A stretch of 64,000 nucleotides of DNA, from positions 75,632 through 139,631 of the forward strand of contig CAJJTG010000001.1 in NCBI GenBank assembly GCA_905194675.1. Reading direction: 5' to 3'. The DNA is from an uncultured Collinsella sp. Lineage in GTDB: Bacteria > Actinomycetota > Coriobacteriia > Coriobacteriales > Coriobacteriaceae. Both the position numbers and the translations under genes were made by a program. The notes below the pieces were generated by a model, which was not told where the DNA came from, did not search any database, and saw only the letters and a list, made by a program, of their open reading frames with translations. Numbering within the stretch: position 1 is the first letter of the stretch; the number at the start of each line of letters is the position of its first letter. Shown in pieces: positions 12,901 through 62,733 of the stretch.

Positions 12901-15900
12901 TATGGTCCGACGGCGCTGGAGCCGTGCGACAGTGGCAACTACCGCGTCACGGCTAAGGTGACTGACTCCAACTATCAGGGTAAAGAGTCCGCCGAGTTCT
13001 CGATTGCAAAGGCAAGCCAGGTCATTACGGGAACGACGAGCTATTCGGGCGTGTACGGTGGAGACCCCATTGTGTTTAACAACGTTGCCCAGACTCCCGT
13101 GACTTTTGAGCTGGTCGATTCCGATGACGATACGGGCCCGGTTTCGATTAAGGGACGCTGCGCGACGGTGAAGGCTGCCGGTACGGCACGTGTTGTCGCC
13201 CATGCCAAGGCGTCTCGAAACTATCTTGCCGCCGAGGACGTCGAGTTGACGGTTTCCGTTGCACCTGCCCAGTTGCTGGTGAAGGTCGACGATGCCGAGC
13301 GCTTTGAGGGCCAGGAAAATCCCGAGTTTACCTCCAGCTTGGTGAGCCGTTGCGACACCTCGGACGTTAAGGTTACGTACTTCTGCTCGGCGAATAAGAA
13401 ATCGCCGGCGGGTGAGTACCAGATCGACGCGGCGGTTGCGGATCCGAACTTTGATGTCGCGGTCGACCCCGGTACGCTGACGGTCAAGAAGAAGCCCGAG
13501 CACTACAAGGTGACGGCGAAGGCAGTCAACGGTTCGGTCGACAATGCTTTGGTTTCGGTTGTTGAGGGCGGGGACGCGACCCTCTCGGCGACGCCCGACG
13601 AGGGCTGCTACCTCGAGCGCGTGACGGTCGTGCAGGCCGGCTCGGATGCGACCGTTGACCTCGACATTTCTGATTACAAGGGCGGGGCGTACGAGGTCAC
13701 GCTGAACGATGTCACCGCATCGCAGGAGGTCACGTTCGAGTTTGCGAAGGCGGACGCTCCGCGTGTGGTCGCGCAGGCGCAGGACGTGAGCGTCCACGAG
13801 GGCGATACCGTCGCGCTCTCGGTCGCTGCCGAGGCAGGCAAGAACGTCGCCGACCACGCGGCCTCGTCCACGGGTTGCGCTGCCGAGGTTGAGCTTTCCT
13901 ACCAGTGGTTCCGCATGGCGAATGGCAAGGCCGTGGCGCTCGATGGCGAGACGGGGGAGACGCTCTCGCTCGCGGACCTCGATGACGAGAAAGCCGGCGA
14001 GTACTTCTGCCGCATCACTCAACGCTACCTTGGTACTGAGAAGCAAGCGGACAGTGATTGTGCCGCCGTTTCCGTCGTGCCGTGGGACACCCTTGTGTTT
14101 AACGGCGACCTGCTGCCGGCAGCGAGCGCGCACGGCACGTACCTCGCAACGATTGCCGGGGCCGCGGGCGGCAAGGCTCCGTACGAGTACGCATGGGATG
14201 AGACGAAGCTCCCCGACGGGTTCAAGCTTTCCCGTACACCGGGCGGTCTGACGCTCTCGGGCATCCCGTCCAAGACGGGCGTTTCCGCCTTTGATATCAC
14301 TTGCAGGGATGCTCGTGGCGAGGCCATGACCGCCCGCTTTGCGCTCGTTGTCCAGGCAAAGCACGTAAAGCTATCGTTCACGGATAGCGACTTTACCTTT
14401 AATGGCGCGTCGCAGGCGCCCGAAGTTTCCGGTGCTCCTAAGGTCTGCAAGGGCGACCTTAAGGTCTGGTACTTTGGTACTGGAAGCACGCAATATTCCT
14501 CGACGGAGGCCCCGACTGATGCCGGCACGTACCGCGCTGTCGCCACGCTGCGCGGCCACGGCTACATCGGTGCCGCCGCCTGCCAGTTTGAGATCGCTCT
14601 GGCAAAGCTCAAGGTGAAGGTTGACGACGCCGAGCGGTTCGAGGGCGAGGCGAACCCAGCGTTTACCTCGAGCCTGGAGAGTGCGGTTGACACTTCGGGT
14701 GTGAAGGTCGAGTATTCCTGCGATGCCGATGAGAGCTCTCCTGCTGGCGAGTACCAGATCGGCGCGACGGTCACCGACCCGAACTTCGATGTCGAGGTCG
14801 TGCCCGGAACGCTGACGGTGAAAAAGAAGCAGGAGCCCGTCGATCCAGACCCGGTGGTTCCGGACCCGGACAATCCTGATCCGGACAACCCGGATCCCGA
14901 TCAGCCTGATCCTGGTCCCAACCCCGACCCGGATCCTAACCCTGAACCTGATAATCCTGATCCGGGCCCCAAGCCGGATCCCGATAATCCCGACCCTGAT
15001 AACCCCGAGCCCGATAACCCGGACAAGCCCGAGCGCATTGAGGTGACGGCAAAGGCGGTCAACGGTTCGGTCGACAACGCTTCCGTCACCGTTGATGCGG
15101 GCGGCGACGTGACGCTCTCGGCGACGCCCGACAAGGGCTGCTACCTCGAGCTGGTGACGGTCACGGAAGCCGGCTCGGACAAGGCCATCGATCTCGATAT
15201 CTCCGACTATGAGGGCGGGGCGTACGAGGTCACGTTGAGTAGCGTCACCGCGTCGCAGGAGGTCACGTTCGAGTTCGTGAAGGCGGACGCTCCGAAGGTG
15301 ATCGCCCAGCCGCAGGATGCGAGCGCCCACGAGAGCGATGCTGTCGTGCTCTCGGTTGCTGCCGAGGCGGGCAAGGGCGTCCTCGACCACGCGTCCTCGT
15401 CCACGGGTTCCGCCGCTGATGTCGAACTGTCCTATCAATGGTTCCACATGGTGGGCGGCGAGGCCGTGGCGCTCGAGGGCGAGACGGGGGAGACGCTCCT
15501 CATCGAGGGCCTCGATGACGATTGCGCCGGCGAGTATTTCTGCCGCGTCACCCAGCGCTACCTTGGTACCGAGACGCAGGTGGAAAGCGATCGTGCCGTC
15601 GTTTCCGTTGTGCCCCGGGATGCCCTTGTGTTCAACGGCGGTCTGCTGCCGGTCGCACGTGCGCGTAGCACGTATCGCGCGACGATTTCGGGCGCCGCGG
15701 GTGGCGAAGCTCCGTATGAGTACACGTGGGACGACGCTAAGCTCCCCGACGGGTTTAAGCTTACCCGCACAGCGGGCGGTTTGACGCTCTCGGGCACCCC
15801 GTCCAAGGTCGGAGTGTCTACCTTTGACATCACGTGCAAGGATGCTCAGGGCAAGACCGTGACCGCGCACTTTGTTCTTGTCGTTCAGGCGAAGCGGGTC

Positions 15901-16824
15901 GAGCTTGCATTTGAGGGCGGCAACTTCGTCTATAGCGGTGACGCCCAGGCGCCCGAGGTCACGGGGGTTCCCAAGGCCTGCGAAGGTGACCTGAGGGTCA
16001 GGTATTACGGGACGGGCGGCACGCACTATTCGTCGAGTGGGGCCCCGACCGATGCCGGCACATATCGCGCCGTTGCCACGCTGCGAAGCGACGGGTATAT
16101 CGGCGCCGCCTCGCGCAAGTTCAAGATTTCACCGGCGAAGCTTAGGGTAAAGGTCGACGATGCTGAACGCTTCGAGGGAGAGGCGAATCCCGCCTTTACC
16201 TCGAGCCTAAAGAGCTCGGCCGATACCTCGGGCGTGAAAGTCGAGTACTCCTGCGTCGCCGATGAGAGTTCCCCGGCGGGCGAGTACCAGATCGGGGCGA
16301 CGGTCGCCGACCCGAACTTCGATGTCACGGTTGAGCCCGGTACGCTGACGGTGAAGAAGAAGCAGGAGCCTGTCAACCCGGACCCGGTGGTTCCCGATCC
16401 GGACAAGCCCGATGGACCCGATCCGGACAAGCCGGACCCGGACAAGCCCGAGCCTGACCAGCCTGATCCGGGCAAGCCTGAGCCCGACAAACCGGAGCCT
16501 GATCAGCCGGACAAGCCGGACCCGGATAACCCGGATAAGCCGGAGCCCGGCAACCCGGACCCGGATAAACCCGGGACGCCCGATTCCGACCAGCCGGATT
16601 CAAAGGATCCGACAAAACCCGGTAGTTCGGATGACTCCGCAGCTGATAAGGCAAAGGCATCGGGCGCGGAAAACTCCGGCAAGAAGGAATCTTCCAAGTC
16701 GAGCGCTCAGCAGCTCGCCGACACGGGCGATCGTGCGCCATTGGCCGTCGCCGTCGCTGTAGGCGCCGTTGCGCTTGTCGCGCTGGGACTCGAACTGCTG
16801 CGTCGCCGTCGCTCGGACGCGTAA
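3916..16824 (+). CDS. Giant (4302 aa) cell-wall-anchored surface protein / adhesin. Composition: signal peptide, Ser/Asp-rich acidic region, 2 BspA-type LRR modules, many Listeria-Bacteroides (Flg_new) repeats, 3 Ig/MBG-like megarepeats, Pro-Asp linkers, LADTG sorting signal
   Basis: Single uninterrupted ORF. N-terminal signal peptide (MNRITAALYRFLVVYLSVAMVVTSIPLAPRAAYA). Repeated GY(R/V)F(V/D)GW motifs. YQW...GEYFCR Ig-like motifs. C-terminus has LADTG (nt 16714-16728) followed by a hydrophobic segment and RRRRSDA tail, i.e. an LAXTG (class E sortase) type signal. Confidence 0.85.
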   Translation: MNRITAALYRFLVVYLSVAMVVTSIPLAPRAAYADDAGALAVESEAQETDSGSDTDAVDESSSSDESASSASSDQENNTQDDSSSAASDAPGTSLAQDLTSAVTDSDAAKSSPATSESSSDDSEVDPLVYEDPTVYEYAKLMPNGYVYPCDAGGSVTVEIDGNDPYGSSVDGKLVTNLIVDYGVDGVPGYICEYSSNLRSVRFENSSISSIGLHAFSGCSNLADISFSGMTIGSIGTGAFSGCGSLTSLNINDVATIGSMGDAAFAWSGLRSTGLDKVVGLSSIPENAYNACSALTDTGLGGNTSITSIGVNAFKNCSRLATTGLESNTTIKTLREGCFSGTNMSGGLTLPLYSKIEELPSRAFYGSKLETVYLGCDHVVLINSTTFPKQYMTVMVPAKMVSQYESGHPKEVWESCNGSLPVPVGKMLQKIEISRDPDKMAYQPGEKISLEGMSVTFQYPHSTMDSDYEALIKEELGEYLTATPCDGDVFDESMDGEPIQLVYDDGYTRLVAYSKGNLQQAAYEYAKLMPNYYLYPCDANGNLTVEIDENSPRENSVDGRMVTNLIVDYGVDEVDAQLCADSTNLRSVRFENTSISKFGLHAFYNCPNLTDISLSGMTIGTIGKEAFYGCKSLASLNISETTTIGSMGDAAFAESGLVSTGLDKVIGLTSIPDRAYEGCKALTDTGLDKNASITSIGVCAFRFCSNLATTGLESNTTVETLGHTCFYGTDLSGGLTLPYNSKIEELPEKAFGSTNLETVFFGCNHAVLINTDTFPKYNMTVMVPARMIPKYANGHPKAVWERCNGCLPVPVGKVLENVGISRDPNNMTYETGETISLEGMSVELDYPHTVSIWNYEALIQEELGEYLTATPCDGDVFDESMDGQPVKLVYDDGYSHFETQTKGTLRLKKPEPTSFQISYAQTIDKGERKLMDGVELPDVSGATTIDAGAEVTLDAGALGMLNDNITFKGWYDTESGKYISKETAYTFTPDKDLSLEARFKLKDYAVHVNDAQATDSSQDYAHLSVTAQNCYRNAGETVEVSAVTDNALFLGWYLGEGDDAYAASDQLDFTYTVDKADAIVSEDKTDARIEITPRYCAPQASVVLSVDGVDENGQPLGQFLSTGLYGIGSRVTVVAVPMPGYVFDYATDALGNVVFTGDDGPSYTFVLEGDVQYTAHFREATDPDESLAALKAALIAAITAAAVLATMYGLGEIVDPIAADAVIEIGMADNIEDVAAVGTKVLKEIKDIIDDHKKPKPHGDHKIEIIATAQPEVGGVVTGGGIHYEGTVATLEAVANPGYRFVCWKENGVEVSTSPLKTMTITDLTPEVVKMTAVFEKKVEVTAVAEADGIQADFSTGCTASPVKQSITRGDQAMVIASEGPDYAFVGWFEDGIEVSPERTYIFEAEVDRHLVARFRKADKTILVNTDPFDSAEVLCDGMPVVDGKVRAKDGDILTFTMRPKVRPDNPEKTYRFVEWRETDAQGITIANKQEVCEYRVNGNARIEAVMDGRDTHTVRAEADPLEGGTVTLKRGETAGMVLEVPEGERVTAEATPSEGYIFDGWYLSNGGSDTTSTLVSSERSYTFEPITDCVVQAKFTRACKVDVVVEPAAAMAGKYMVHGEGYCMKGEPATLSIELTAEASKQFTFKGWYDAKTDLLLGTDPSYLEFYPEDVECTVRAVFEENTYTVTAKAKKTFVERGTVEIEGHPGVSSVTCGYGDTVMLKAKANDGYRFDHWKDDSGKEYDSAELVVKVTKCDTYTAIFTDSKPEVMVTADSWLGGTVTCNGTVVNPTTDTFKLGETLHLTAKAHPGFLFWGWYVNGRLKSLKHETSLVAKARGKTGHCVITAAFVPIDTVCVPLADPAEGGTVKASRILADRGAEVALKATPNPGYVFTGWYTADGTFESADAEFTCHQERSHVHVARFMAKSYEVDATTVVDSGTGSLVESSVAGWVEGAGTVEAGHAATLTAHALSGYAFEYWADASGAVVSRDSTYHVVPTSDTTLQAVFSAKQYTVDVSCEESMGTVEGAGAYAAGQVATVRAVAAEDTAFVGWFRNGTCVSSKKTYRFTVREDTSLYAVFASGSYVVHTVASPAEGGAVSGFGGYEAGDRATLRAIANTGYSFAGWTDDKGETVSENADYTVKVAGDATYTATFTPKSYQVVLSASDDSVSTLSGEGSYQFGDTVELNVTPTGTKRFVGWYVLDAEGNKSLLSCDAHCWVKLDKDMVEGLEDDTLELQAVFADPYEVTVTGEVVVKDKTSNRGCRVTGSGSFAVGDQVELSAVAGMGYRFVGWSTDKEGTSIVETATTLDVTATQDITYYAQFESDGQVTITVTGSSIFRGTALLVDGIPAGSRSYDRGDMFMAIAIPWKKYHFSHWVDDAGVTVGYSAFYIGTAKENKQLTAVFYETGCDVQVATYPKDAGFSMVALGTGGSYHSAAIMFTVPHKGWKFKYWADENGMPVGATPVINRVVFGNRTFTAVYERASMTVTAVDSRQGGHVEGSSEDESLGYAVTNEVENGTSTTLTAVPDAGYVFDGWYARNDDGSLGDEPLSTDATWTFVPEDNMTVEARFAEAPKYKVTARAVNGSVDPESALVATDGKVTLSAAPDEGCYLTRVTVAEEAGDDGSAGNAYDLDISDYKGGAYEVTLSGVSAPQQVTFEFAKAAAPEVLAQPQDTSAYEGDPVELSVAAEAGRNVRVHAAVSSGSAADVKLSYQWYRVSDDSGKAVALKSETGETLSIAQLDSDGEGEYFCRITQNYLGTVTKTDTEHAKVSIVPREALVFNGRVLPVATAHDEYRAEIAGATGGKAPYAYNLDDVEVPEGMQLTLADDGSGALVLSGVPAATGVHSFKIRCTDDLGNKCDAHFALLVKAKEVPLAFEGQTFTYNATAQAPELSGVPEGCEDDVKLTYVGTGDTHYSSDQAPVDAGTYRAVVTLDAKGYVGNASCDFTIEKAPVDISIETSDVTYDGARHGAAVAVAGLDASGYSVAYCGIDGTSYGPTALEPCDSGNYRVTAKVTDSNYQGKESAEFSIAKASQVITGTTSYSGVYGGDPIVFNNVAQTPVTFELVDSDDDTGPVSIKGRCATVKAAGTARVVAHAKASRNYLAAEDVELTVSVAPAQLLVKVDDAERFEGQENPEFTSSLVSRCDTSDVKVTYFCSANKKSPAGEYQIDAAVADPNFDVAVDPGTLTVKKKPEHYKVTAKAVNGSVDNALVSVVEGGDATLSATPDEGCYLERVTVVQAGSDATVDLDISDYKGGAYEVTLNDVTASQEVTFEFAKADAPRVVAQAQDVSVHEGDTVALSVAAEAGKNVADHAASSTGCAAEVELSYQWFRMANGKAVALDGETGETLSLADLDDEKAGEYFCRITQRYLGTEKQADSDCAAVSVVPWDTLVFNGDLLPAASAHGTYLATIAGAAGGKAPYEYAWDETKLPDGFKLSRTPGGLTLSGIPSKTGVSAFDITCRDARGEAMTARFALVVQAKHVKLSFTDSDFTFNGASQAPEVSGAPKVCKGDLKVWYFGTGSTQYSSTEAPTDAGTYRAVATLRGHGYIGAAACQFEIALAKLKVKVDDAERFEGEANPAFTSSLESAVDTSGVKVEYSCDADESSPAGEYQIGATVTDPNFDVEVVPGTLTVKKKQEPVDPDPVVPDPDNPDPDNPDPDQPDPGPNPDPDPNPEPDNPDPGPKPDPDNPDPDNPEPDNPDKPERIEVTAKAVNGSVDNASVTVDAGGDVTLSATPDKGCYLELVTVTEAGSDKAIDLDISDYEGGAYEVTLSSVTASQEVTFEFVKADAPKVIAQPQDASAHESDAVVLSVAAEAGKGVLDHASSSTGSAADVELSYQWFHMVGGEAVALEGETGETLLIEGLDDDCAGEYFCRVTQRYLGTETQVESDRAVVSVVPRDALVFNGGLLPVARARSTYRATISGAAGGEAPYEYTWDDAKLPDGFKLTRTAGGLTLSGTPSKVGVSTFDITCKDAQGKTVTAHFVLVVQAKRVELAFEGGNFVYSGDAQAPEVTGVPKACEGDLRVRYYGTGGTHYSSSGAPTDAGTYRAVATLRSDGYIGAASRKFKISPAKLRVKVDDAERFEGEANPAFTSSLKSSADTSGVKVEYSCVADESSPAGEYQIGATVADPNFDVTVEPGTLTVKKKQEPVNPDPVVPDPDKPDGPDPDKPDPDKPEPDQPDPGKPEPDKPEPDQPDKPDPDNPDKPEPGNPDPDKPGTPDSDQPDSKDPTKPGSSDDSAADKAKASGAENSGKKESSKSSAQQLADTGDRAPLAVAVAVGAVALVALGLELLRRRRSDA
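4321..6600 (+). repeat. Two tandem ~1.15-kb in-gene repeats encoding LRR (BspA-like) modules
   Basis: YEYAKLMPNGYVYPCDAGG... (from 4321) and YEYAKLMPNYYLYPCDANG... (from 5491) align nearly residue-for-residue over ~380 aa. Confidence 0.7.
11638..16360 (+). repeat. Three tandem in-gene megarepeats (~1.86, ~1.54, ~1.32 kb). Repeats 2 and 3 are each followed by a Pro-Asp-rich (PDPDNPDP...) linker (nt 14836-15030 and 16363-16600)
   Basis: Units begin KYKVTARAVNGSVD (11638), HYKVTAKAVNGSVD (13501) and RIEVTAKAVNGSVD (15040). High nucleotide identity, e.g. the DLDISDYKGGAYEVTL segments. Confidence 0.75.
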
Positions 16825-18392: not shown

Positions 18393-18469
18393 CGGGACGT
18401 GGCGCAGTTTGGTAGCGCGCCTGCTTTGGGAGCAGGATGTCGCAGGTTCAAATCCTGTCGTCCCGACCA
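18393..18469 (+). tRNA. tRNA-Pro (anticodon TGG)
   Basis: CGGGACGTGGCGCAG...CGTCCCGACCA. Anticodon loop ctTTGGGag. T-arm GGTTCAAATCC. CCA encoded. Confidence 0.85.
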
Positions 18470-18475
18470 TATCTT

Positions 18476-18549
18476 GCGGGCGTAGTTCAATGGTAGAACC
18501 CCAGCCTTCCAAGCTGATGACGCGGGTTCGATTCCCGTCGCCCGCTCCA
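18476..18549 (+). tRNA. tRNA-Gly (anticodon TCC)
   Basis: GCGGGCGTAGTTCAATGGTAGAAC...CAGCCTTCCAAGCTG... closely resembles E. coli glyT. Acceptor GCGGGCG/CGCCCGC + T + CCA. Confidence 0.85.
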
Positions 18550-41448: not shown

Positions 41449-41545
41449 GGGAACGGATGGGCTCCGGTGGGCTCCGCGGTCCTCAAAACCGTTGCGAGGC
41501 GTGCAAAACGTCTTGGATGTGTTCGATTCACATACGTTCCCGCCA
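41449..41545 (+). tRNA. selC: Candidate tRNA-Sec (anticodon TCA), 97 nt
   Basis: Lies 37 nt downstream of selB. Acceptor gggaacg/cgttccc + g + CCA. 7-nt anticodon loop ccTCAaa. Long variable arm (aggcg-tgcaaaa-cgtct). T-arm atgtg-TTCGATT-cacat. By hand-folding the D-arm does not form a canonical 6-bp stem. Confidence 0.5.
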
Positions 41546-48459: not shown

Positions 48460-48543
48460 GCGGGCGTGGCGGAATTGGTAGACGCGCCAGATTTAGGTTC
48501 TGGTGGGATTCCCGTGAAGGTTCGAGTCCTTTCGCCCGCACCA
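48460..48543 (+). tRNA. tRNA-Leu (anticodon TAG)
   Basis: GCGGGCGTGGCGGAATTGGTAGACGCG... Anticodon loop ttTAGgt. Long variable arm. T-arm GGTTCGAGTCC. Ends cgcccgc-a-CCA. Confidence 0.85.
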
Positions 48544-60200: not shown

Positions 60201-61655
60201 CTAGCGCACCCCCTTCAAAGGACCCTCGACCAGCCAGGAACCGGCATCCTCCAACAGTACCTCGCTGGGGTCGCAGCCCAGCTCGCGCGCCAGGATCGCC
60301 ACCACACGGCTCTGGCAAAACCCGCTTTGGCACCGACCCATGCCGGCACGGCAGCGGCGCTTGACGCCCTCGACCGAAACCGCGCCCGGCTGGCGTCGAA
60401 TCGCGGCCACGATCTCGGCTTCGGGCACCGTCTCGCAGCGGCAGACAATCTGGCCCCAAGCGGGATCGGACTCAATGAGCTCCTCCTTGCGCGCCAGCGG
60501 TGCGCGGTCAAAGTCTTCCGGCGCGCGGCGAATTGGGTTCCAGTCTGCCCGCTCGTGCAGTTTCACGCCGGCATCGCGCAGGACCTGTTCCATTCGCTCG
60601 GCAATAGCCGGCGCGCTTGCCACACCCGGTGACTGAATGCCCGCCGCCTGGAATAGCCCCGGCATCACGGCCGACTGCCCAATAAAGAAGTCGTTCGTTC
60701 CCTGAATGACCGGACGCCCGCCGGCAAACGCGCGCACCACGCGGCGCGTGTCCAGGTCGGGCACCAGCTTGCGCGCGCCGGTCAGCAGCGCGTCCACATC
60801 GCTTGCATAGGTCTGCGTGTCGCCCGGCTCGCGCACGGCAGCCGTGGCGGTAATCACGGTGTTGCCGTGCACGGTGCCCGTGACAATAACGCCCTTGGAC
60901 ACCGGCGTCGGCACGGGGTAGAGCGGCATGAGCGTGCGCGGTTCCTTATCCAGCACCACAATGTTGCCCTGGCGCCATACCATCTGGAACTCTTCGGCAC
61001 CCGCCATATGCGAGATGTCGGCGGCGCCGTTGCCCGCGGCGTTGATCAGGTAACGGCAGCGCACGTTGCCAGCGGGGGTCGCCAGCGTAAAGCGCGCGTC
61101 GTCGACCGAGCCCGCGACTTCAATCGCCTCCACGGGTGCGGAGCGCATAAACGCTACGCCGTTGGCAACCGCGTTCTCCAGCGCGGCGATGGCCACTTCA
61201 AATGGGTCAACGTAACCGGTCGAAGGGCACCACAACGCGCATGTTGCGTCGGCGCTGGCACGCGGTTCCAGCTCGTGGATACGTTCGGGGCCGATAATCG
61301 ACAGCTCGGACACGCCGTTGGCCAGGCCATTCTGGCGCAGCTTCTCCAGGTGTGCGCGGTCTTCGTCGTTAAACCCCAGCACCATCGACCCGGTGCGGCG
61401 GAACAAAAATCCCAGCTCCTGGGCCCACGAGCCATATAGCTCGCAGCCGCGGGCGTTGACCTGCGCCTTTACGGTTCCCGGAGCCGGATCGTAGCCGGCG
61501 TGAACCAGGCCGCCGTTGGCCTTCGAGGCGCCCAGCGCAATGTCGTTGGCCGCCTCGACCATGCATATGGACAGGTCATAGCGCGCGAGCTGCCGCGCGA
61601 TGGCGCACCCGGTGATGCCGGCGCCCACAATCGCGATATCAAACGTTTCTGCCAC
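60201..61655 (-). CDS. FAD-dependent oxidoreductase, GlpA-like (anaerobic glycerol-3-phosphate dehydrogenase A-like) with a C-terminal BFD-like [2Fe-2S] domain
   Basis: N-terminal DIAIVGAGITGCAIA FAD motif. C-terminal CRCETV...CRAGMGRCQSGFCQ. GTG start with a gggagg RBS. Confidence 0.75.
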   Translation of the reverse strand: MAETFDIAIVGAGITGCAIARQLARYDLSICMVEAANDIALGASKANGGLVHAGYDPAPGTVKAQVNARGCELYGSWAQELGFLFRRTGSMVLGFNDEDRAHLEKLRQNGLANGVSELSIIGPERIHELEPRASADATCALWCPSTGYVDPFEVAIAALENAVANGVAFMRSAPVEAIEVAGSVDDARFTLATPAGNVRCRYLINAAGNGAADISHMAGAEEFQMVWRQGNIVVLDKEPRTLMPLYPVPTPVSKGVIVTGTVHGNTVITATAAVREPGDTQTYASDVDALLTGARKLVPDLDTRRVVRAFAGGRPVIQGTNDFFIGQSAVMPGLFQAAGIQSPGVASAPAIAERMEQVLRDAGVKLHERADWNPIRRAPEDFDRAPLARKEELIESDPAWGQIVCRCETVPEAEIVAAIRRQPGAVSVEGVKRRCRAGMGRCQSGFCQSRVVAILARELGCDPSEVLLEDAGSWLVEGPLKGVR

Positions 61656-61672
61656 GGTGCCTCCCAGATGAG

Positions 61673-61687
61673 TTGACAGGCTGTCAA
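61673..61687. promoter_or_regulatory. Perfect 7-1-7 palindrome TTGACAG-G-CTGTCAA ~20 nt upstream of the GlpA-like gene start. Candidate operator
   Basis: Read directly from the sequence. Lies between the RBS and the presumed promoter of the minus-strand operon. Confidence 0.35.
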
Positions 61688-61824
61688 TATGACTATCCTA
61701 CGGCCTGCACATCCCCAGTGCGGCGGCAATGCGGCGAACAGTCCCGCAACACCCGCCAACGGCAGGCGAGGGGAGGCTCGGCAACGTCGACAACCTCGTC
61801 TGCCAACAACTACGGCAACCGTTC

Positions 61825-62203
61825 GTCTCGATCTGTAACAGTTGGACGAGGATTTGGGTTCCAGTTGTTACAGTTTGAGACATTCGGTTTGGACGGTTTT
61901 CTTTGTCTTAATCTGTAACAGTTAGCTGAGGATTTGGGTTCTAGATGTTACAGATTTAGATGAACCTATCAGTCGGTTTCGAATGTCTAAATCTGTAACG
62001 GTTAGACCTGTTTTTGCCGAGTTGTTGTTACAGATTGAGATATTTTAACGGAGGGCTCACCGTTCGTCTCGATCTGTAACAGTAAGAGGGGTTTTGGGGC
62101 CCAAGATGTTACAGATCGAGATTGAAGTCGGGGAGGGACCCCTGTGTCTCGATCTGTAACATTTAGGACCGGATTCCGCTCCTAACTGTTACAGATTGAG
62201 ATG
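61825..62203. repeat. Phased array of five ~80-bp units. Each unit contains an 18-19-nt inverted repeat (consensus GTCTCGATCTGTAACAGTT ... AACTGTTACAGATCGAGAC) around a variable ~19-22-nt centre. Units are separated by variable ~22-26-nt linkers
   Basis: Left arms at 61825, 61906, 61985, 62066 and 62146 (spacing 81/79/81/80). Right arms at 61863, 61942, 62021, 62104 and 62185. The arms are conserved while the centres and linkers diverge. No ORF spans the array. Confidence 0.7.
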
Positions 62204-62301
62204 TTTGTGTCCGCGTCAGCCCCGCCCCTAGCCGTGGTCCCATATAAACAAACCCCGTGGTAAACTTGACCGGACTGTTAATATTCCGAAAGGTACCCGT
62301 A

Positions 62302-62733
62302 ATGTCCAAGTACATCTCCGAGCTCATGTCGCCGCAGCTCATGGGCGTCGTCTATGCCTTCGTTGGCTTTATCATCGCCCTGTATGTTCTGTCGGTCGTC
62401 TATGTGTTCATCGACGCTCGCCGCCGCGGCGCCAGCGCCTACGTGGCATGGGGCATCATCGCCCTCATCCCGTTTGTTGGCCTCATCGCCTACCTGGTCC
62501 TGCGTCCGCACTCCTACGCGGCCGACCGTGAGGAGCAGGAGCTGGACATGGCCCTGCGCGAGCGCCAACTTGCCCAGTACGGCACCTGCCCGCAGTGCGG
62601 CGCGCCCATCGAGAAGGACTTCGTCGTCTGTCCGGTGTGCGATACCCAGGTTCGCAACGTATGCCCCAGCTGCCATCGCCCGCTCGATGCGCACTGGAAG
62701 GTCTGCCCCTACTGCCGAACTCGCATCCAGTAA
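62302..62733 (+). CDS. Small membrane protein: PLD-nuclease N-terminal (PLDc_N-like) TM domain plus a C-terminal double zinc-ribbon
   Basis: ATG 62302 after RBS gaaagg. YVFIDARRRGASAYVAWGIIALIPFVGLIAYLVL (PLDc_N-like). Four CxxC pairs (CPQCG, CPVCD, CPSCH, CPYCR). Confidence 0.55.
   Translation: MSKYISELMSPQLMGVVYAFVGFIIALYVLSVVYVFIDARRRGASAYVAWGIIALIPFVGLIAYLVLRPHSYAADREEQELDMALRERQLAQYGTCPQCGAPIEKDFVVCPVCDTQVRNVCPSCHRPLDAHWKVCPYCRTRIQ

What the first reader, a model, noticed from the sequence alone, without database searches (positions are those of the whole stretch)
61825..62203. Phased array of five ~80-bp palindromic units with conserved arms and variable centres, unlike any standard repeat class
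The 650-bp divergent intergenic region between the GlpA-like operon and a PLDc_N/zinc-ribbon gene contains five units at a strict ~80-bp period. Each unit is an 18-19-bp inverted repeat (core ATCTGTAACAGTT / AACTGTTACAGAT) around a ~20-nt centre. The centres and the inter-unit linkers are mostly unrelated to one another, although the centres of units 1 and 2 still share GAGGATTTGGGTTC. This alternating conserved/variable architecture resembles CRISPR arrays or type III antitoxin (ToxI-like) repeat RNAs. Here, however, the repeats alternate in orientation, there are no cas genes in the window, and there is no toxN-like gene. Selective conservation of both arms but not of loops or linkers argues for function rather than recent tandem duplication. 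The function could be RNA hairpins, or five phased binding sites/cruciforms for a dimeric DNA-binding protein. The downstream gene's promoter region also contains a related half-site (ACTGTTAATAT).
Basis: seen in the sequence. Interest (0 to 1): 0.8.

Follow-up and report, generated by a model that had tools for sequence, protein, structure and literature searches.

The report
Collinsella dispersed palindromic repeat array
The five 80-bp palindromic units are real, but they are one copy of a repeat family scattered through the intergenic DNA of Collinsella gut bacteria, comparable to the REP/BIME repeats of E. coli, and not a CRISPR-like or antitoxin-RNA array.

Summary
Window 61826-62201 holds five units at an 80/81-bp period. 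Each unit is two inverted 15-nt arms (TCTCRATCTGTAACA) exactly 25 nt apart.

The array is not a one-off. The same unit occurs in about 105 Collinsella genomes, in arrays of 1-8 units, at 35 or more different intergenic sites next to unrelated genes. A 900-kb C. aerofaciens chromosome piece carries 15 arrays.

At the window's own glpA/zinc-ribbon site, other species have 2-8 units and differ by whole-unit gain or loss.

- **Arms:** conserved (2.9% divergence between orthologues, against 6.9% for flanking intergenic DNA).
- **Centres and linkers:** divergent in sequence (12-15%), but their lengths stay fixed.
- **Pairing:** the two arms show no compensatory changes. The palindrome is two inverted copies of a recognition motif, not a selected hairpin.
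- **Other checks:** no Rfam family matches, and the two neighbouring genes scanned are neither cas nor toxN.

Best reading: a Collinsella-specific interspersed extragenic repeat, like BIMEs or REPIN clusters, whose arms are sites for an unidentified protein. I found no description of it in the literature searched. Interest is moderate. The fixed spacing and the regional clustering of arrays remain unexplained.

The parts
61826..61880 (.). Unit 1: left arm 61826-61840 (TCTCGATCTGTAACA), 25-nt centre 61841-61865, right arm 61866-61880 (TGTTACAGTTTGAGA)
61881..61905 (.). Linker 1 (25 nt, not conserved in sequence)
61906..61960 (.). Unit 2: arms 61906-61920 and 61946-61960; its centre shares GAGGATTTGGGTTC with unit 1
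61961..61985 (.). Linker 2 (25 nt). The same linker follows the equivalent unit in L002 and L024
61986..62040 (.). Unit 3: arms 61986-62000 (TCTAAATCTGTAACG) and 62026-62040. Orthologous units exist in L002 and L024
62041..62066 (.). Linker 3 (26 nt; this gives the one 81-bp period)
62067..62121 (.). Unit 4: arms 62067-62081 and 62107-62121 (perfectly complementary). Orthologous units exist in L024, L092 and L118
62122..62146 (.). Linker 4 (25 nt). It is conserved together with unit 4 in L024, L092 and L118
62147..62201 (.). Unit 5, the terminal unit: arms 62147-62161 and 62187-62201. A related terminal unit, followed by the same tgtttgtgtc flank, ends every orthologous array examined
61656..61825 (.). 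Non-repeat intergenic flank on the GlpA-like side. Most of it is conserved between species. The last ~20 nt before the first arm vary with which unit comes first
62202..62301 (.). Non-repeat intergenic flank before the zinc-ribbon gene, highly conserved between species. It contains the supposed half-site ACTGTTAATAT, which is not a family member
60201..61655 (-). Neighbouring gene: FAD-dependent oxidoreductase with BFD-like 2Fe-2S domain (GlpA-like). It is the first gene of a three-gene cluster (with Pyr_redox_2 and DUF1667 genes). It is not part of the repeat
62302..62733 (+). Neighbouring gene: 143-aa PLDc_N + double-zinc-ribbon protein. It is not part of the repeat

Best explanation
The array is one locus of a Collinsella-wide family of interspersed extragenic palindromic repeats.

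**Anatomy.** The basic unit is 57 bp. It has two inverted copies of a ~15-25-nt motif (consensus G-W-W-T-G-TCTC-R-ATCTGTAACA-K-n-TAG), held exactly 40 bp apart centre to centre. Units are strung head to tail every 80-81 bp.

**Shown here.**
- The family is dispersed, strictly intergenic, and sits next to unrelated genes.
- Arm sequence is conserved, and centre and linker lengths are fixed (40 bp in 335 of 338 arm pairs), while centre and linker sequences drift.
- Arrays at one site differ between species by whole units.
- The two arms do not co-vary.

**Inferred.**
- The arms are sequence-specific recognition sites for a trans-acting protein that reads each arm independently, at a fixed geometry. 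This could be a mobilising transposase-like enzyme, as for REPIN/RAYT or MITEs, or a host DNA-binding protein, as for BIMEs, which bind IHF and gyrase.
- Arrays grow and shrink by unequal recombination or slippage between the identical arms.
- Arrays persist in intergenic DNA, mostly just after gene 3' ends, where they are tolerated.
- At this locus the array lies between two conserved stretches of flank that probably hold the two divergent promoters. There is no evidence that it regulates the glp-like operon in particular.
For: **Dispersal.**
- These hold 145 arrays of 1-8 units, at periods of 79-81 bp in almost every case, falling into 35 or more flank classes.
- One 900-kb C. aerofaciens record carries 15 arrays with 32 units.

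**Context.**
- No array lies inside an ORF. Contexts are 41 divergent, 40 convergent and 36 tandem.
- Neighbours include Nramp, PTS, a kinase, an AAA ATPase and lacG.

**Same site in other species.** Arrays of 2, 3, 3, 3, 4 and 8 units sit between conserved flanks, with units shared in mosaic.

**Geometry.** Left-to-right arm distance is 40 bp in 335 of 338 cases. Right-to-left is 40 bp (129 cases) or 41 bp (85 cases). Solo arms are rare.

**Constraint.**
- Orthologue divergence is 2.9% for arms, 6.9% for flanking intergenic DNA, 11.8% for centres and 14.7% for linkers.
- Variation in the arms is confined to three positions.

**No hairpin selection.**
- The observed Watson-Crick fraction equals what independent arms would give at every variable pair.
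- 90.9% of cells are paired, against 91.2% in shuffles. The covariation score is 0.096, against 0.100 in shuffles.

**Linkers belong to the element.** Centre and linker types recur at different genomic sites far above shuffled controls.

**Known analogues.** Ordered tandem REPIN clusters and evenly spaced REP arrays are described in PMC3116915.
Against: - No cognate protein was identified. No RAYT-like gene flanked by units was seen in the window or in the 900-kb record. The ends of the IS200/IS605, IS21, IS256 and IS30 copies in that record do not resemble the arms.
- No empty orthologous site or target-site duplication was found, so mobility is not demonstrated.
- For decaying selfish copies one would not expect arms at orthologous sites to be better conserved than neighbouring intergenic DNA. 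That points to a host-level function or to continuing homogenisation.
- Arrays are strongly clustered along the one long record examined: 0 of 127 intergenic regions in 402 kb, against 15 of 210 in the rest. A purely tolerated element does not predict this.
- Each arm is not itself a stem-loop, and there is no GTAG/CGTC tag at the foot of the unit, so it is not a canonical REP.
Confidence: 0.6

Rival explanations
1. Host nucleoprotein platform. The arms are phased binding sites on double-stranded DNA for a Collinsella DNA-binding or chromosome-organising protein. All arms lie about four helical turns apart. The arrays mark or structure a particular chromosomal region, or act as insulators or topological barriers between transcription units.
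For: - Arm sequence and 40/41-bp spacing are conserved although the intervening sequence is free to vary.
- The arms vary independently of each other, as half-sites would.
- Arms at orthologous sites are better conserved than the flanking intergenic DNA.
- Units within one genome are old and diverged, yet none has lost its spacing.
- Arrays are absent from 402 kb and present 15 times in the adjacent 498 kb of one replichore.
- E. coli BIMEs bind IHF and gyrase (established knowledge; reviewed in PMC3333891, seen).
Against: - No candidate protein was found.
- The clustering rests on a single 900-kb record.
- Half-site centres 40 bp apart are far for a simple dimer.
- Unit number varies freely between species at one site, from 2 to 8.
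- The sites are strictly intergenic, whereas short binding sites of chromosome organisers (parS, matS) also occur inside genes.
Confidence: 0.2
2. Single-strand hairpin element. Each unit works as an RNA or ssDNA stem-loop, for example as a 3'-UTR stabiliser, a terminator, or a hairpin substrate of a HUH (RAYT/IS200-type) enzyme.
For: - Each unit can form a 16-bp stem, and the region folds far better than shuffles (z = -11 on the plus strand, -10 on the minus strand).
- In the window, G.T oppositions outnumber A.C by 17:2 on the plus strand. This bias correlates with G/T skew of the loops and linkers.
- 10 of 14 arrays in the annotated record lie 7-110 bp after a stop codon.
- An IS200/IS605 copy has inserted into one array, as such elements do into REPs.
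Against: - There is no compensatory change at any variable pair.
- A.C and G.T combinations are about as common as expected for independent arms.
- About a third of arrays lie between divergent genes.
- In co-directional contexts the G.T-rich strand is antisense to the flanking genes in 4 of 5 site classes.
- No terminator-like U-tracts are present.
- No Rfam family matches.
Confidence: 0.15
3. Locus-specific operator array. The five units are operators of a regulator of the divergent glp-like operon and the zinc-ribbon gene.
For: The array lies between two divergent genes, and GlpR/DeoR-type regulators are known to use multiple operators (established knowledge).
Against: - The same units lie at 35 or more sites beside unrelated genes, often between convergent genes.
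- Unit number at this very site ranges from 2 to 8 between species.
Confidence: 0.03
4. CRISPR-like or ToxI-like RNA array, with guide or antitoxin repeats and variable inserts.
For: The only support is the alternation of conserved and variable segments of fixed length.
Against: - The repeats alternate in orientation.
- Neither neighbouring gene is cas or toxN.
- A genome has dozens of arrays, next to housekeeping genes.
- The 'spacers' are inherited, shared between species, and recur at other sites.
- No CRISPR repeat family passes threshold; the best is 14.7 bits against a 35-bit cut-off.
Confidence: 0.01

Closest known systems
BIMEs and ordered REPIN clusters (REP/PU repeats of E. coli, Pseudomonas and others; PMC3116915, PMC3333891)
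   Same: - Short palindromic repeats restricted to extragenic DNA and dispersed at many sites.
- The conserved motif alternates in orientation, with linkers of fixed length.
- Tandem clusters vary in unit number between strains.
- Most lie near gene 3' ends.
- They are targets of IS insertion.
   Different: - The arm is not itself a stem-loop; only the pair of arms is palindromic.
- There is no GTAG/CGTC tag at the foot.
- No RAYT gene was found.
- Copy number is roughly 30 units per 900 kb, not hundreds per genome.
- Arrays, not singlets or doublets, are the usual state: about 90% of loci have 2 or more units.
[quoted passage not shown]
- The host is an actinobacterial gut genus.
MITEs (miniature inverted-repeat transposable elements)
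   Same: - Terminal inverted repeats are conserved independently of each other, with no covariation, around a freely evolving centre of fixed length.
- They are intergenic and dispersed.
   Different: - The 57-bp unit is very small.
- Units occur at a fixed 80/81-bp phase, with linkers that belong to the element.
- No target-site duplication or empty site was seen.
- No parent IS with matching ends was found among the IS21, IS256, IS30 and IS200 copies examined.
Plasmid centromere or iteron arrays such as F sopC (12 tandem 43-bp units, each with an inverted-repeat SopB site; from established knowledge)
   Same: Both are phased tandem units, each carrying a conserved inverted-repeat protein site separated by less conserved spacer.
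   Different: - A centromere is one locus per replicon, next to its parAB genes.
- Here dozens of chromosomal loci carry arrays, with no linked partition genes.
CRISPR arrays
   Same: Both show regular alternation of conserved and variable segments of constant length.
   Different: - CRISPR repeats are direct, not inverted.
- CRISPR spacers are unique and acquired in a polar fashion.
- CRISPR arrays are linked to cas genes.

None of these features holds here.

Membership tests
REP / BIME / REPIN (RAYT-associated) | Short imperfect palindromes repeated many times and confined to extragenic DNA | tested here: met
   145 arrays were found, none inside an ORF. One 900-kb record has 15 arrays with 32 units.
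REP / BIME / REPIN (RAYT-associated) | Higher-order clusters with the motif in alternating orientation, or ordered tandem clusters | tested here: met
   Arm chains of the L-R-L-R form dominate. Spacing is 40 bp, then 40 or 41 bp. Compare PMC3116915.
REP / BIME / REPIN (RAYT-associated) | Each REP is itself a stem-loop, and the hairpin is the recognised form | tested here: not met
   The 15-nt arm is not self-complementary beyond TGTWACA. Pairing between the arms shows no compensatory change.
REP / BIME / REPIN (RAYT-associated) | Conserved GTAG or CGTC tetranucleotide at the foot of the palindrome (PMC3733652) | tested here: not met
   The positions outside the stem have consensus G-W-W-T-G. 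A TAG (often GTAG or CTAG) lies inside the unit instead, at positions 12-14.
REP / BIME / REPIN (RAYT-associated) | A single-copy RAYT (Y1 transposase) gene flanked by the repeats | tested here: inconclusive
   None was seen in the RefSeq annotation of the 900-kb record, or next to arrays where I checked. The two IS200/IS605 tnpA copies there have unrelated end hairpins. The rest of the genome was not searchable.
MITE | Terminal inverted repeats flanking a short non-coding core | tested here: met
   
MITE | Target-site duplication and occupied/empty site polymorphism | tested here: inconclusive
   No empty orthologous site was found among the fetched loci. Array ends carry linker-like sequence rather than an obvious duplication.
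MITE | A parent IS in the genome with the same terminal repeats | tested here: not met
   The ends of the IS21, IS256, IS30 and IS200 copies in NZ_OY725717.1 are unrelated to the arms. Only 3 solo arms occur in about 0.9 Mb. Only part of one genome was examined.
CRISPR array | Direct repeats in one orientation | tested here: not met
   The arms alternate in orientation.
CRISPR array | Unique spacers that differ between strains; adjacent cas genes | tested here: not met
   - Centres and linkers are shared between species and recur at other sites.
- The neighbours are metabolic or housekeeping genes.
- The best CRISPR-DR Rfam score is 14.7 bits against a 35-bit cut-off.
Type III toxin-antitoxin (ToxI-like RNA) | Direct tandem repeats immediately upstream of a toxN-family endoribonuclease gene | tested here: not met
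   The flanking genes are a DAO/Fer2_BFD oxidoreductase and a PLDc_N/DZR protein. The arrays are dispersed.
Integron attC sites / CALIN | R''/R' cores RYYYAAC...GTTRRRY, sites in one orientation separated by gene cassettes, intI nearby | tested here: not met
   - The cores here read CTGTAAC/GTTACAG, with 2 mismatches each to the consensus (read).
- Only 25 nt lies between units, so there are no cassettes.
- No attC covariance model was available to run.
Any described RNA family (Rfam 15) | Score at or above the family's gathering threshold | tested here: not met
   No hit falls in the region at gathering thresholds. With relaxed thresholds only weak generic miRNA-hairpin matches appear.

The most novel reading that the evidence does not exclude
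The arrays may be phased nucleoprotein sites rather than selfish DNA. In this reading, an unidentified Collinsella protein binds the invariant arms, which sit about four helical turns apart. This would explain why arm sequence and spacing are kept over long times while everything between them drifts. The arrays would mark one chromosomal region: none occur in 402 kb, and 15 occur in the adjacent 498 kb of a replichore. They would then act as a macrodomain-type or insulator-type chromosome-organising system built from repeat arrays.
Probability: 0.12. Interest if true: 0.75.

Novelty: new variant of a known kind. Interest (0 to 1): 0.4.

Why it matters
**Practical value.**
- Collinsella is an abundant and very diverse human gut genus. 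No repeat family has been described for it in the literature I could search.
- Knowing this family prevents mis-annotation of the arrays as CRISPR-like or sRNA loci.
- The family gives a set of variable-number tandem-repeat (VNTR)-type markers, with 2-8 units at one site across species.
- It explains some assembly breaks, because many arrays sit at contig ends.

**Biological interest.** Invariant arms, strictly fixed spacing, free intervening sequence, no hairpin covariation and regional clustering together are not what simple decaying mobile DNA predicts. If a specific binding protein exists, these arrays would be a tractable example of repeat-based genome organisation in Actinomycetota.

Tried and rejected
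- **Rfam.** Searched at gathering and at relaxed thresholds. Nothing relevant appeared, and 'Collinsella-1' does not match.
- **CRISPR/ToxI reading.** Rejected on repeat orientation, dispersal, and the neighbouring genes that were scanned.
- **Hairpin selection.** Tested by marginal-versus-joint base counts and by the count of structure pairs. No covariation was found. Pairing inside the 25-nt centre is only weakly enriched and off-register.
- **Strand polarity.** G.T versus A.C oppositions are strongly biased in the window (17:2). The bias is inconsistent relative to flanking genes. In the 900-kb record it follows the general GC skew only weakly (23:37). I treat it as a mutational or compositional asymmetry. 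The position-10/34 'polarity marker' is mixed within arrays: adjacent units agree 32 times and differ 13 times.
- **The 363-aa ORF.** It is tightly flanked by two arrays in 9 species and was considered as a possible cognate protein. It has no Pfam, NCBIfam or PDB match. Other genes (Nramp, a kinase) are flanked by arrays in the same way, so the association is not specific.
- **Search for empty orthologous sites.** None was found among the fetched loci.
- **Protein homologue search with the GlpA-like gene.** It returned only 92-95% identical Collinsella proteins, so no distant orthologous intergenic regions were obtained.
- **Phage collection.** No match.
- **IMG/VR hits.** These are host DNA flanking a prophage integrase, or unrelated low-GC chance matches.
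- **IS ends.** Compared with the arms; no similarity.
- **A faulty query.** One NCBIfam query for the zinc-ribbon gene used a start shifted by one base (62303 instead of 62302). That negative result is void. The Pfam result stands.

Full report
**1. The observation.**
Window 61826-62201 contains five copies of a unit with start-to-start spacing of 80, 80, 81 and 80 bp. Each unit has a 15-nt left arm (TCTCGATCTGTAACA and variants), a 25-nt centre, and the inverted arm. Successive units are separated by 25 or 26 nt. The arm 18-mer occurs 7 times with up to 3 mismatches, against 0.05 expected. The 10-mer core occurs 10 times against 1.2 expected. All occurrences lie inside the array. A profile HMM of 342 units from other genomes finds only these five units in the 64-kb window.

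The array lies in a 646-bp divergent intergenic region. On one side is a GlpA-like FAD oxidoreductase gene (60201-61655, minus strand), followed by Pyr_redox_2 and DUF1667 genes. On the other is a 143-aa PLDc_N/double-zinc-ribbon gene (62302-62733, plus strand). The exception is the 'related half-site' near the downstream gene, which no search recovers.

**2. It is a dispersed family.**
The window comes from Collinsella in the human gut. Nearly all were from about 105 Collinsella genomes, and every Collinsella-type match had a 25-nt gap. With two mismatches allowed per core, these loci hold 145 arrays of 1-8 units, almost always at 79-81 bp. Clustering the flanks gives 35 or more different genomic sites.

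The arrays never lie inside ORFs. They occur between divergent (41), convergent (40) and co-directional (36) genes. The neighbours are unrelated in function: Nramp, PTS, a Ser/Thr kinase, an AAA ATPase, glutamate synthase and an amidohydrolase.

A PLSDB record labelled as a plasmid, NZ_OY725717.1, is really 900 kb of C. aerofaciens chromosome. It carries recA, dnaE, rpoBC and ribosomal-protein operons. I read it completely. It holds 32 units in 15 arrays. Ten of 14 classifiable arrays lie 7-110 bp after a stop codon, and 3-4 lie between divergent genes.

**3. The same site in other species.**
Six other Collinsella genomes carry the complete intergenic region at the glpA/zinc-ribbon site. They have 2, 3, 3, 3, 4 (plus a solo arm) and 8 units. 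The non-repeat flanks are highly conserved. Individual units, with their linkers, can be recognised across species in mosaic order. Window unit 4 with its linker equals L024 unit 6, L092 unit 2 and L118 unit 2, and a related terminal unit followed by the same flank ends every array. The arrays therefore change by gain and loss of whole 80-bp units. This is what unequal recombination or slippage between identical arms would produce (inference).

**4. What is conserved.**
- **Consensus.** Across 160 oriented units the consensus is G-W-W-T-G-TCTC-R-ATCTGTAACA-K-n-TAG, then about 15 variable nt with an A/T-rich middle, then the mirror image.
- **Arm distances.** Left-to-right arm distance is 40 bp in 335 of 338 cases. 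Right-to-left is 40 bp (129 cases) or 41 bp (85 cases). Arrays begin with a left arm and end with a right arm, and solo arms are rare.
- **Divergence.** Between orthologous arrays, divergence is 2.9% in arms, 6.9% in properly aligned non-repeat intergenic flanks, 11.8% in centres and 14.7% in linkers.
- **Age of units.** Within one genome, centres in the same array are no more alike (13.7/25) than centres in different arrays (12.4/25). The units are therefore old, not recent duplicates, yet they have kept arm sequence and spacing.
- **Recurrence.** Centre and linker types recur at different genomic sites far more than shuffled controls allow. The linker is part of the element and is not target DNA.

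**5. Hairpin or two half-sites?**
The region would fold very stably as RNA on either strand (z about -11 and -10). But at every variable pair of positions, the observed Watson-Crick fraction equals what independent arms would give. For example it is 0.54 against 0.50 expected at -1/45, and 0.51 against 0.54 at -6/50. On a gap-free alignment of 120 units, 90.9% of cells pair, against 91.2% in column-preserving shuffles. The covariation score is 0.096 against 0.100, with 403 of 500 shuffles at least as high.

The palindrome is thus fully explained by two inverted copies of one conserved motif. There is no sign that pairing itself is selected. A strong excess of G.T over A.C on the window's plus strand (17:2) correlates with G/T skew of the loops and linkers. 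It is not consistently oriented relative to genes, and I regard it as compositional.

No Rfam family matches. No terminator-like sites are present.

**6. Mechanism.**
The best-supported reading is an interspersed extragenic repeat family of the BIME/REPIN-cluster/MITE kind. Its arms are sequence-specific recognition sites, read independently at fixed geometry by an unidentified protein. Its arrays change size by recombination between arms.

- **Shown:** dispersal, intergenic restriction, whole-unit variation, arm and spacing constraint, and absence of covariation.
- **Inferred:** the existence and nature of the protein, and the recombination mechanism.
- **Not shown:** mobility. I found no empty site and no target duplication. 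I also found no parent IS or RAYT. The IS200/IS605, IS21, IS256 and IS30 ends in the 900-kb record are unrelated to the arms, although one IS200/IS605 copy has inserted into an array.

Two facts fit a host-level DNA function better than decaying selfish DNA. First, arms at orthologous sites are better conserved than neighbouring intergenic DNA. Second, arrays are absent from 402 kb (0 of 127 intergenic regions of at least 100 bp) but occupy 15 of 210 in the adjacent 498 kb of the same replichore (p = 0.0008). I keep that as the main rival and as the most novel reading. The clustering rests on one record only.

**7. Comparison with known systems.**
Ordered tandem REPIN clusters and evenly spaced REP arrays are described for Pseudomonas (PMC3116915). 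BIMEs with alternating REPs and fixed linkers are known in enterobacteria (PMC3333891).

This family shares the architecture and the genomic behaviour. It fails three defining REP features:
- the arm is not a stem-loop;
- there is no GTAG/CGTC tag at the foot;
- no RAYT was found.

It shares inverted terminal repeats with MITEs but lacks the other hallmarks. CRISPR, ToxI and attC membership are each excluded by tested features. No paper in the searchable library links Collinsella or Coriobacteriaceae with REP, REPIN, BIME or MITE elements.

**8. Verdict.**
The feature is real and non-random. It is one member of a genus-wide repeat family and not a unique device at this locus. I rate it a new variant of a known kind, with interest 0.4. 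The open questions are the identity of the arm-binding factor, why the spacing is so strictly kept, and whether the regional clustering is general.

Noticed in passing
NZ_OY725717.1 (L136-L153), whole 899,693-bp record: All 15 arrays lie between 402.7 and 876.8 kb. None lies in the first 402 kb, although that part has as much intergenic DNA (68.9 against 68.3 kb). The count is 0 of 127 against 15 of 210 intergenic regions (p = 0.0008). The plus strand has negative GC skew throughout, so this is a single replichore.
   Followed up: partly
L144 22697-23420 (NZ_OY725717.1 422,697-423,420): An IS200/IS605 tnpA copy sits where other species have a 2-4-unit array downstream of the Nramp gene. Only a truncated unit remains next to it. 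A second, nearly identical IS copy (533,435-533,893; same TnpA protein) is not near any array. The IS's own end hairpins are unrelated to the arms.
   Followed up: partly
L042 4917-6011 (also L020 904-2040; NZ_OY725717.1 412,152-413,228): A ~363-aa ORF is tightly bracketed by arrays on both sides, within 4-45 bp of its ends, in 9 or more species. It has no Pfam, NCBIfam or PDB sequence match. By eye its C-terminus (VDYFW...GELDGKGKY) looks like a DUF559/Vsr-type nuclease motif. A 35%-identical paralogue lies about 1 kb from another array site (L026, L045, L050).
   Followed up: partly
L122, L124, L125, L127, L129, L134 (IMG/VR contigs): Predicted prophage contigs contain an array right next to a ~375-386-aa ORF at the edge of the phage-specific region, possibly the integrase (not scanned against any family library). 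For the four contigs that match L040/L101 (L122, L125, L127, L129), the array lies on the host-homologous side. In L125, homology to the prophage-free locus L040 ends about 68 bp beyond the array. The phage appears to integrate beside the repeat, not within it.
   Followed up: partly
window 61826-62201, plus strand: There is a strong strand asymmetry in the stem mismatches (17 G.T against 2 A.C). The pattern is that of C-to-T change on the plus strand of the right arms only. The same orientation of bias is seen in orthologous arrays. Its relation to transcription or replication is unresolved.
   Followed up: partly
window 62041-62066, 62122-62146 and 61810-61825: Several linkers contain their own small palindromes (AACGG...CCGTT, GGGG...CCCC, ACGG...CCGT), centred between units. 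The array therefore has dyad axes about every 40 bp. This was seen by eye only and was not tested statistically.
   Followed up: no
window 41449-41541: A selenocysteine tRNA gene is present (Rfam tRNA-Sec, 64.6 bits). Three ordinary tRNA genes lie at 18393-18546 and 48460-48540.
   Followed up: no
window 14866-15024 and 16393-16598: Long runs of 15-nt-period tandem repeats are present (for example CCGGACAAGCCGGAC, which would read as Pro-Asp-Lys-Pro-Asp). They probably encode a proline-rich repeat region of a surface protein.
   Followed up: no
NZ_OY725717.1 (PLSDB): This record is labelled 'plasmid 6' and circular. It carries recA, dnaE, rpoB/C, ftsK, rho and most ribosomal-protein operons, so it is a chromosome segment misfiled as a plasmid.
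   Followed up: yes
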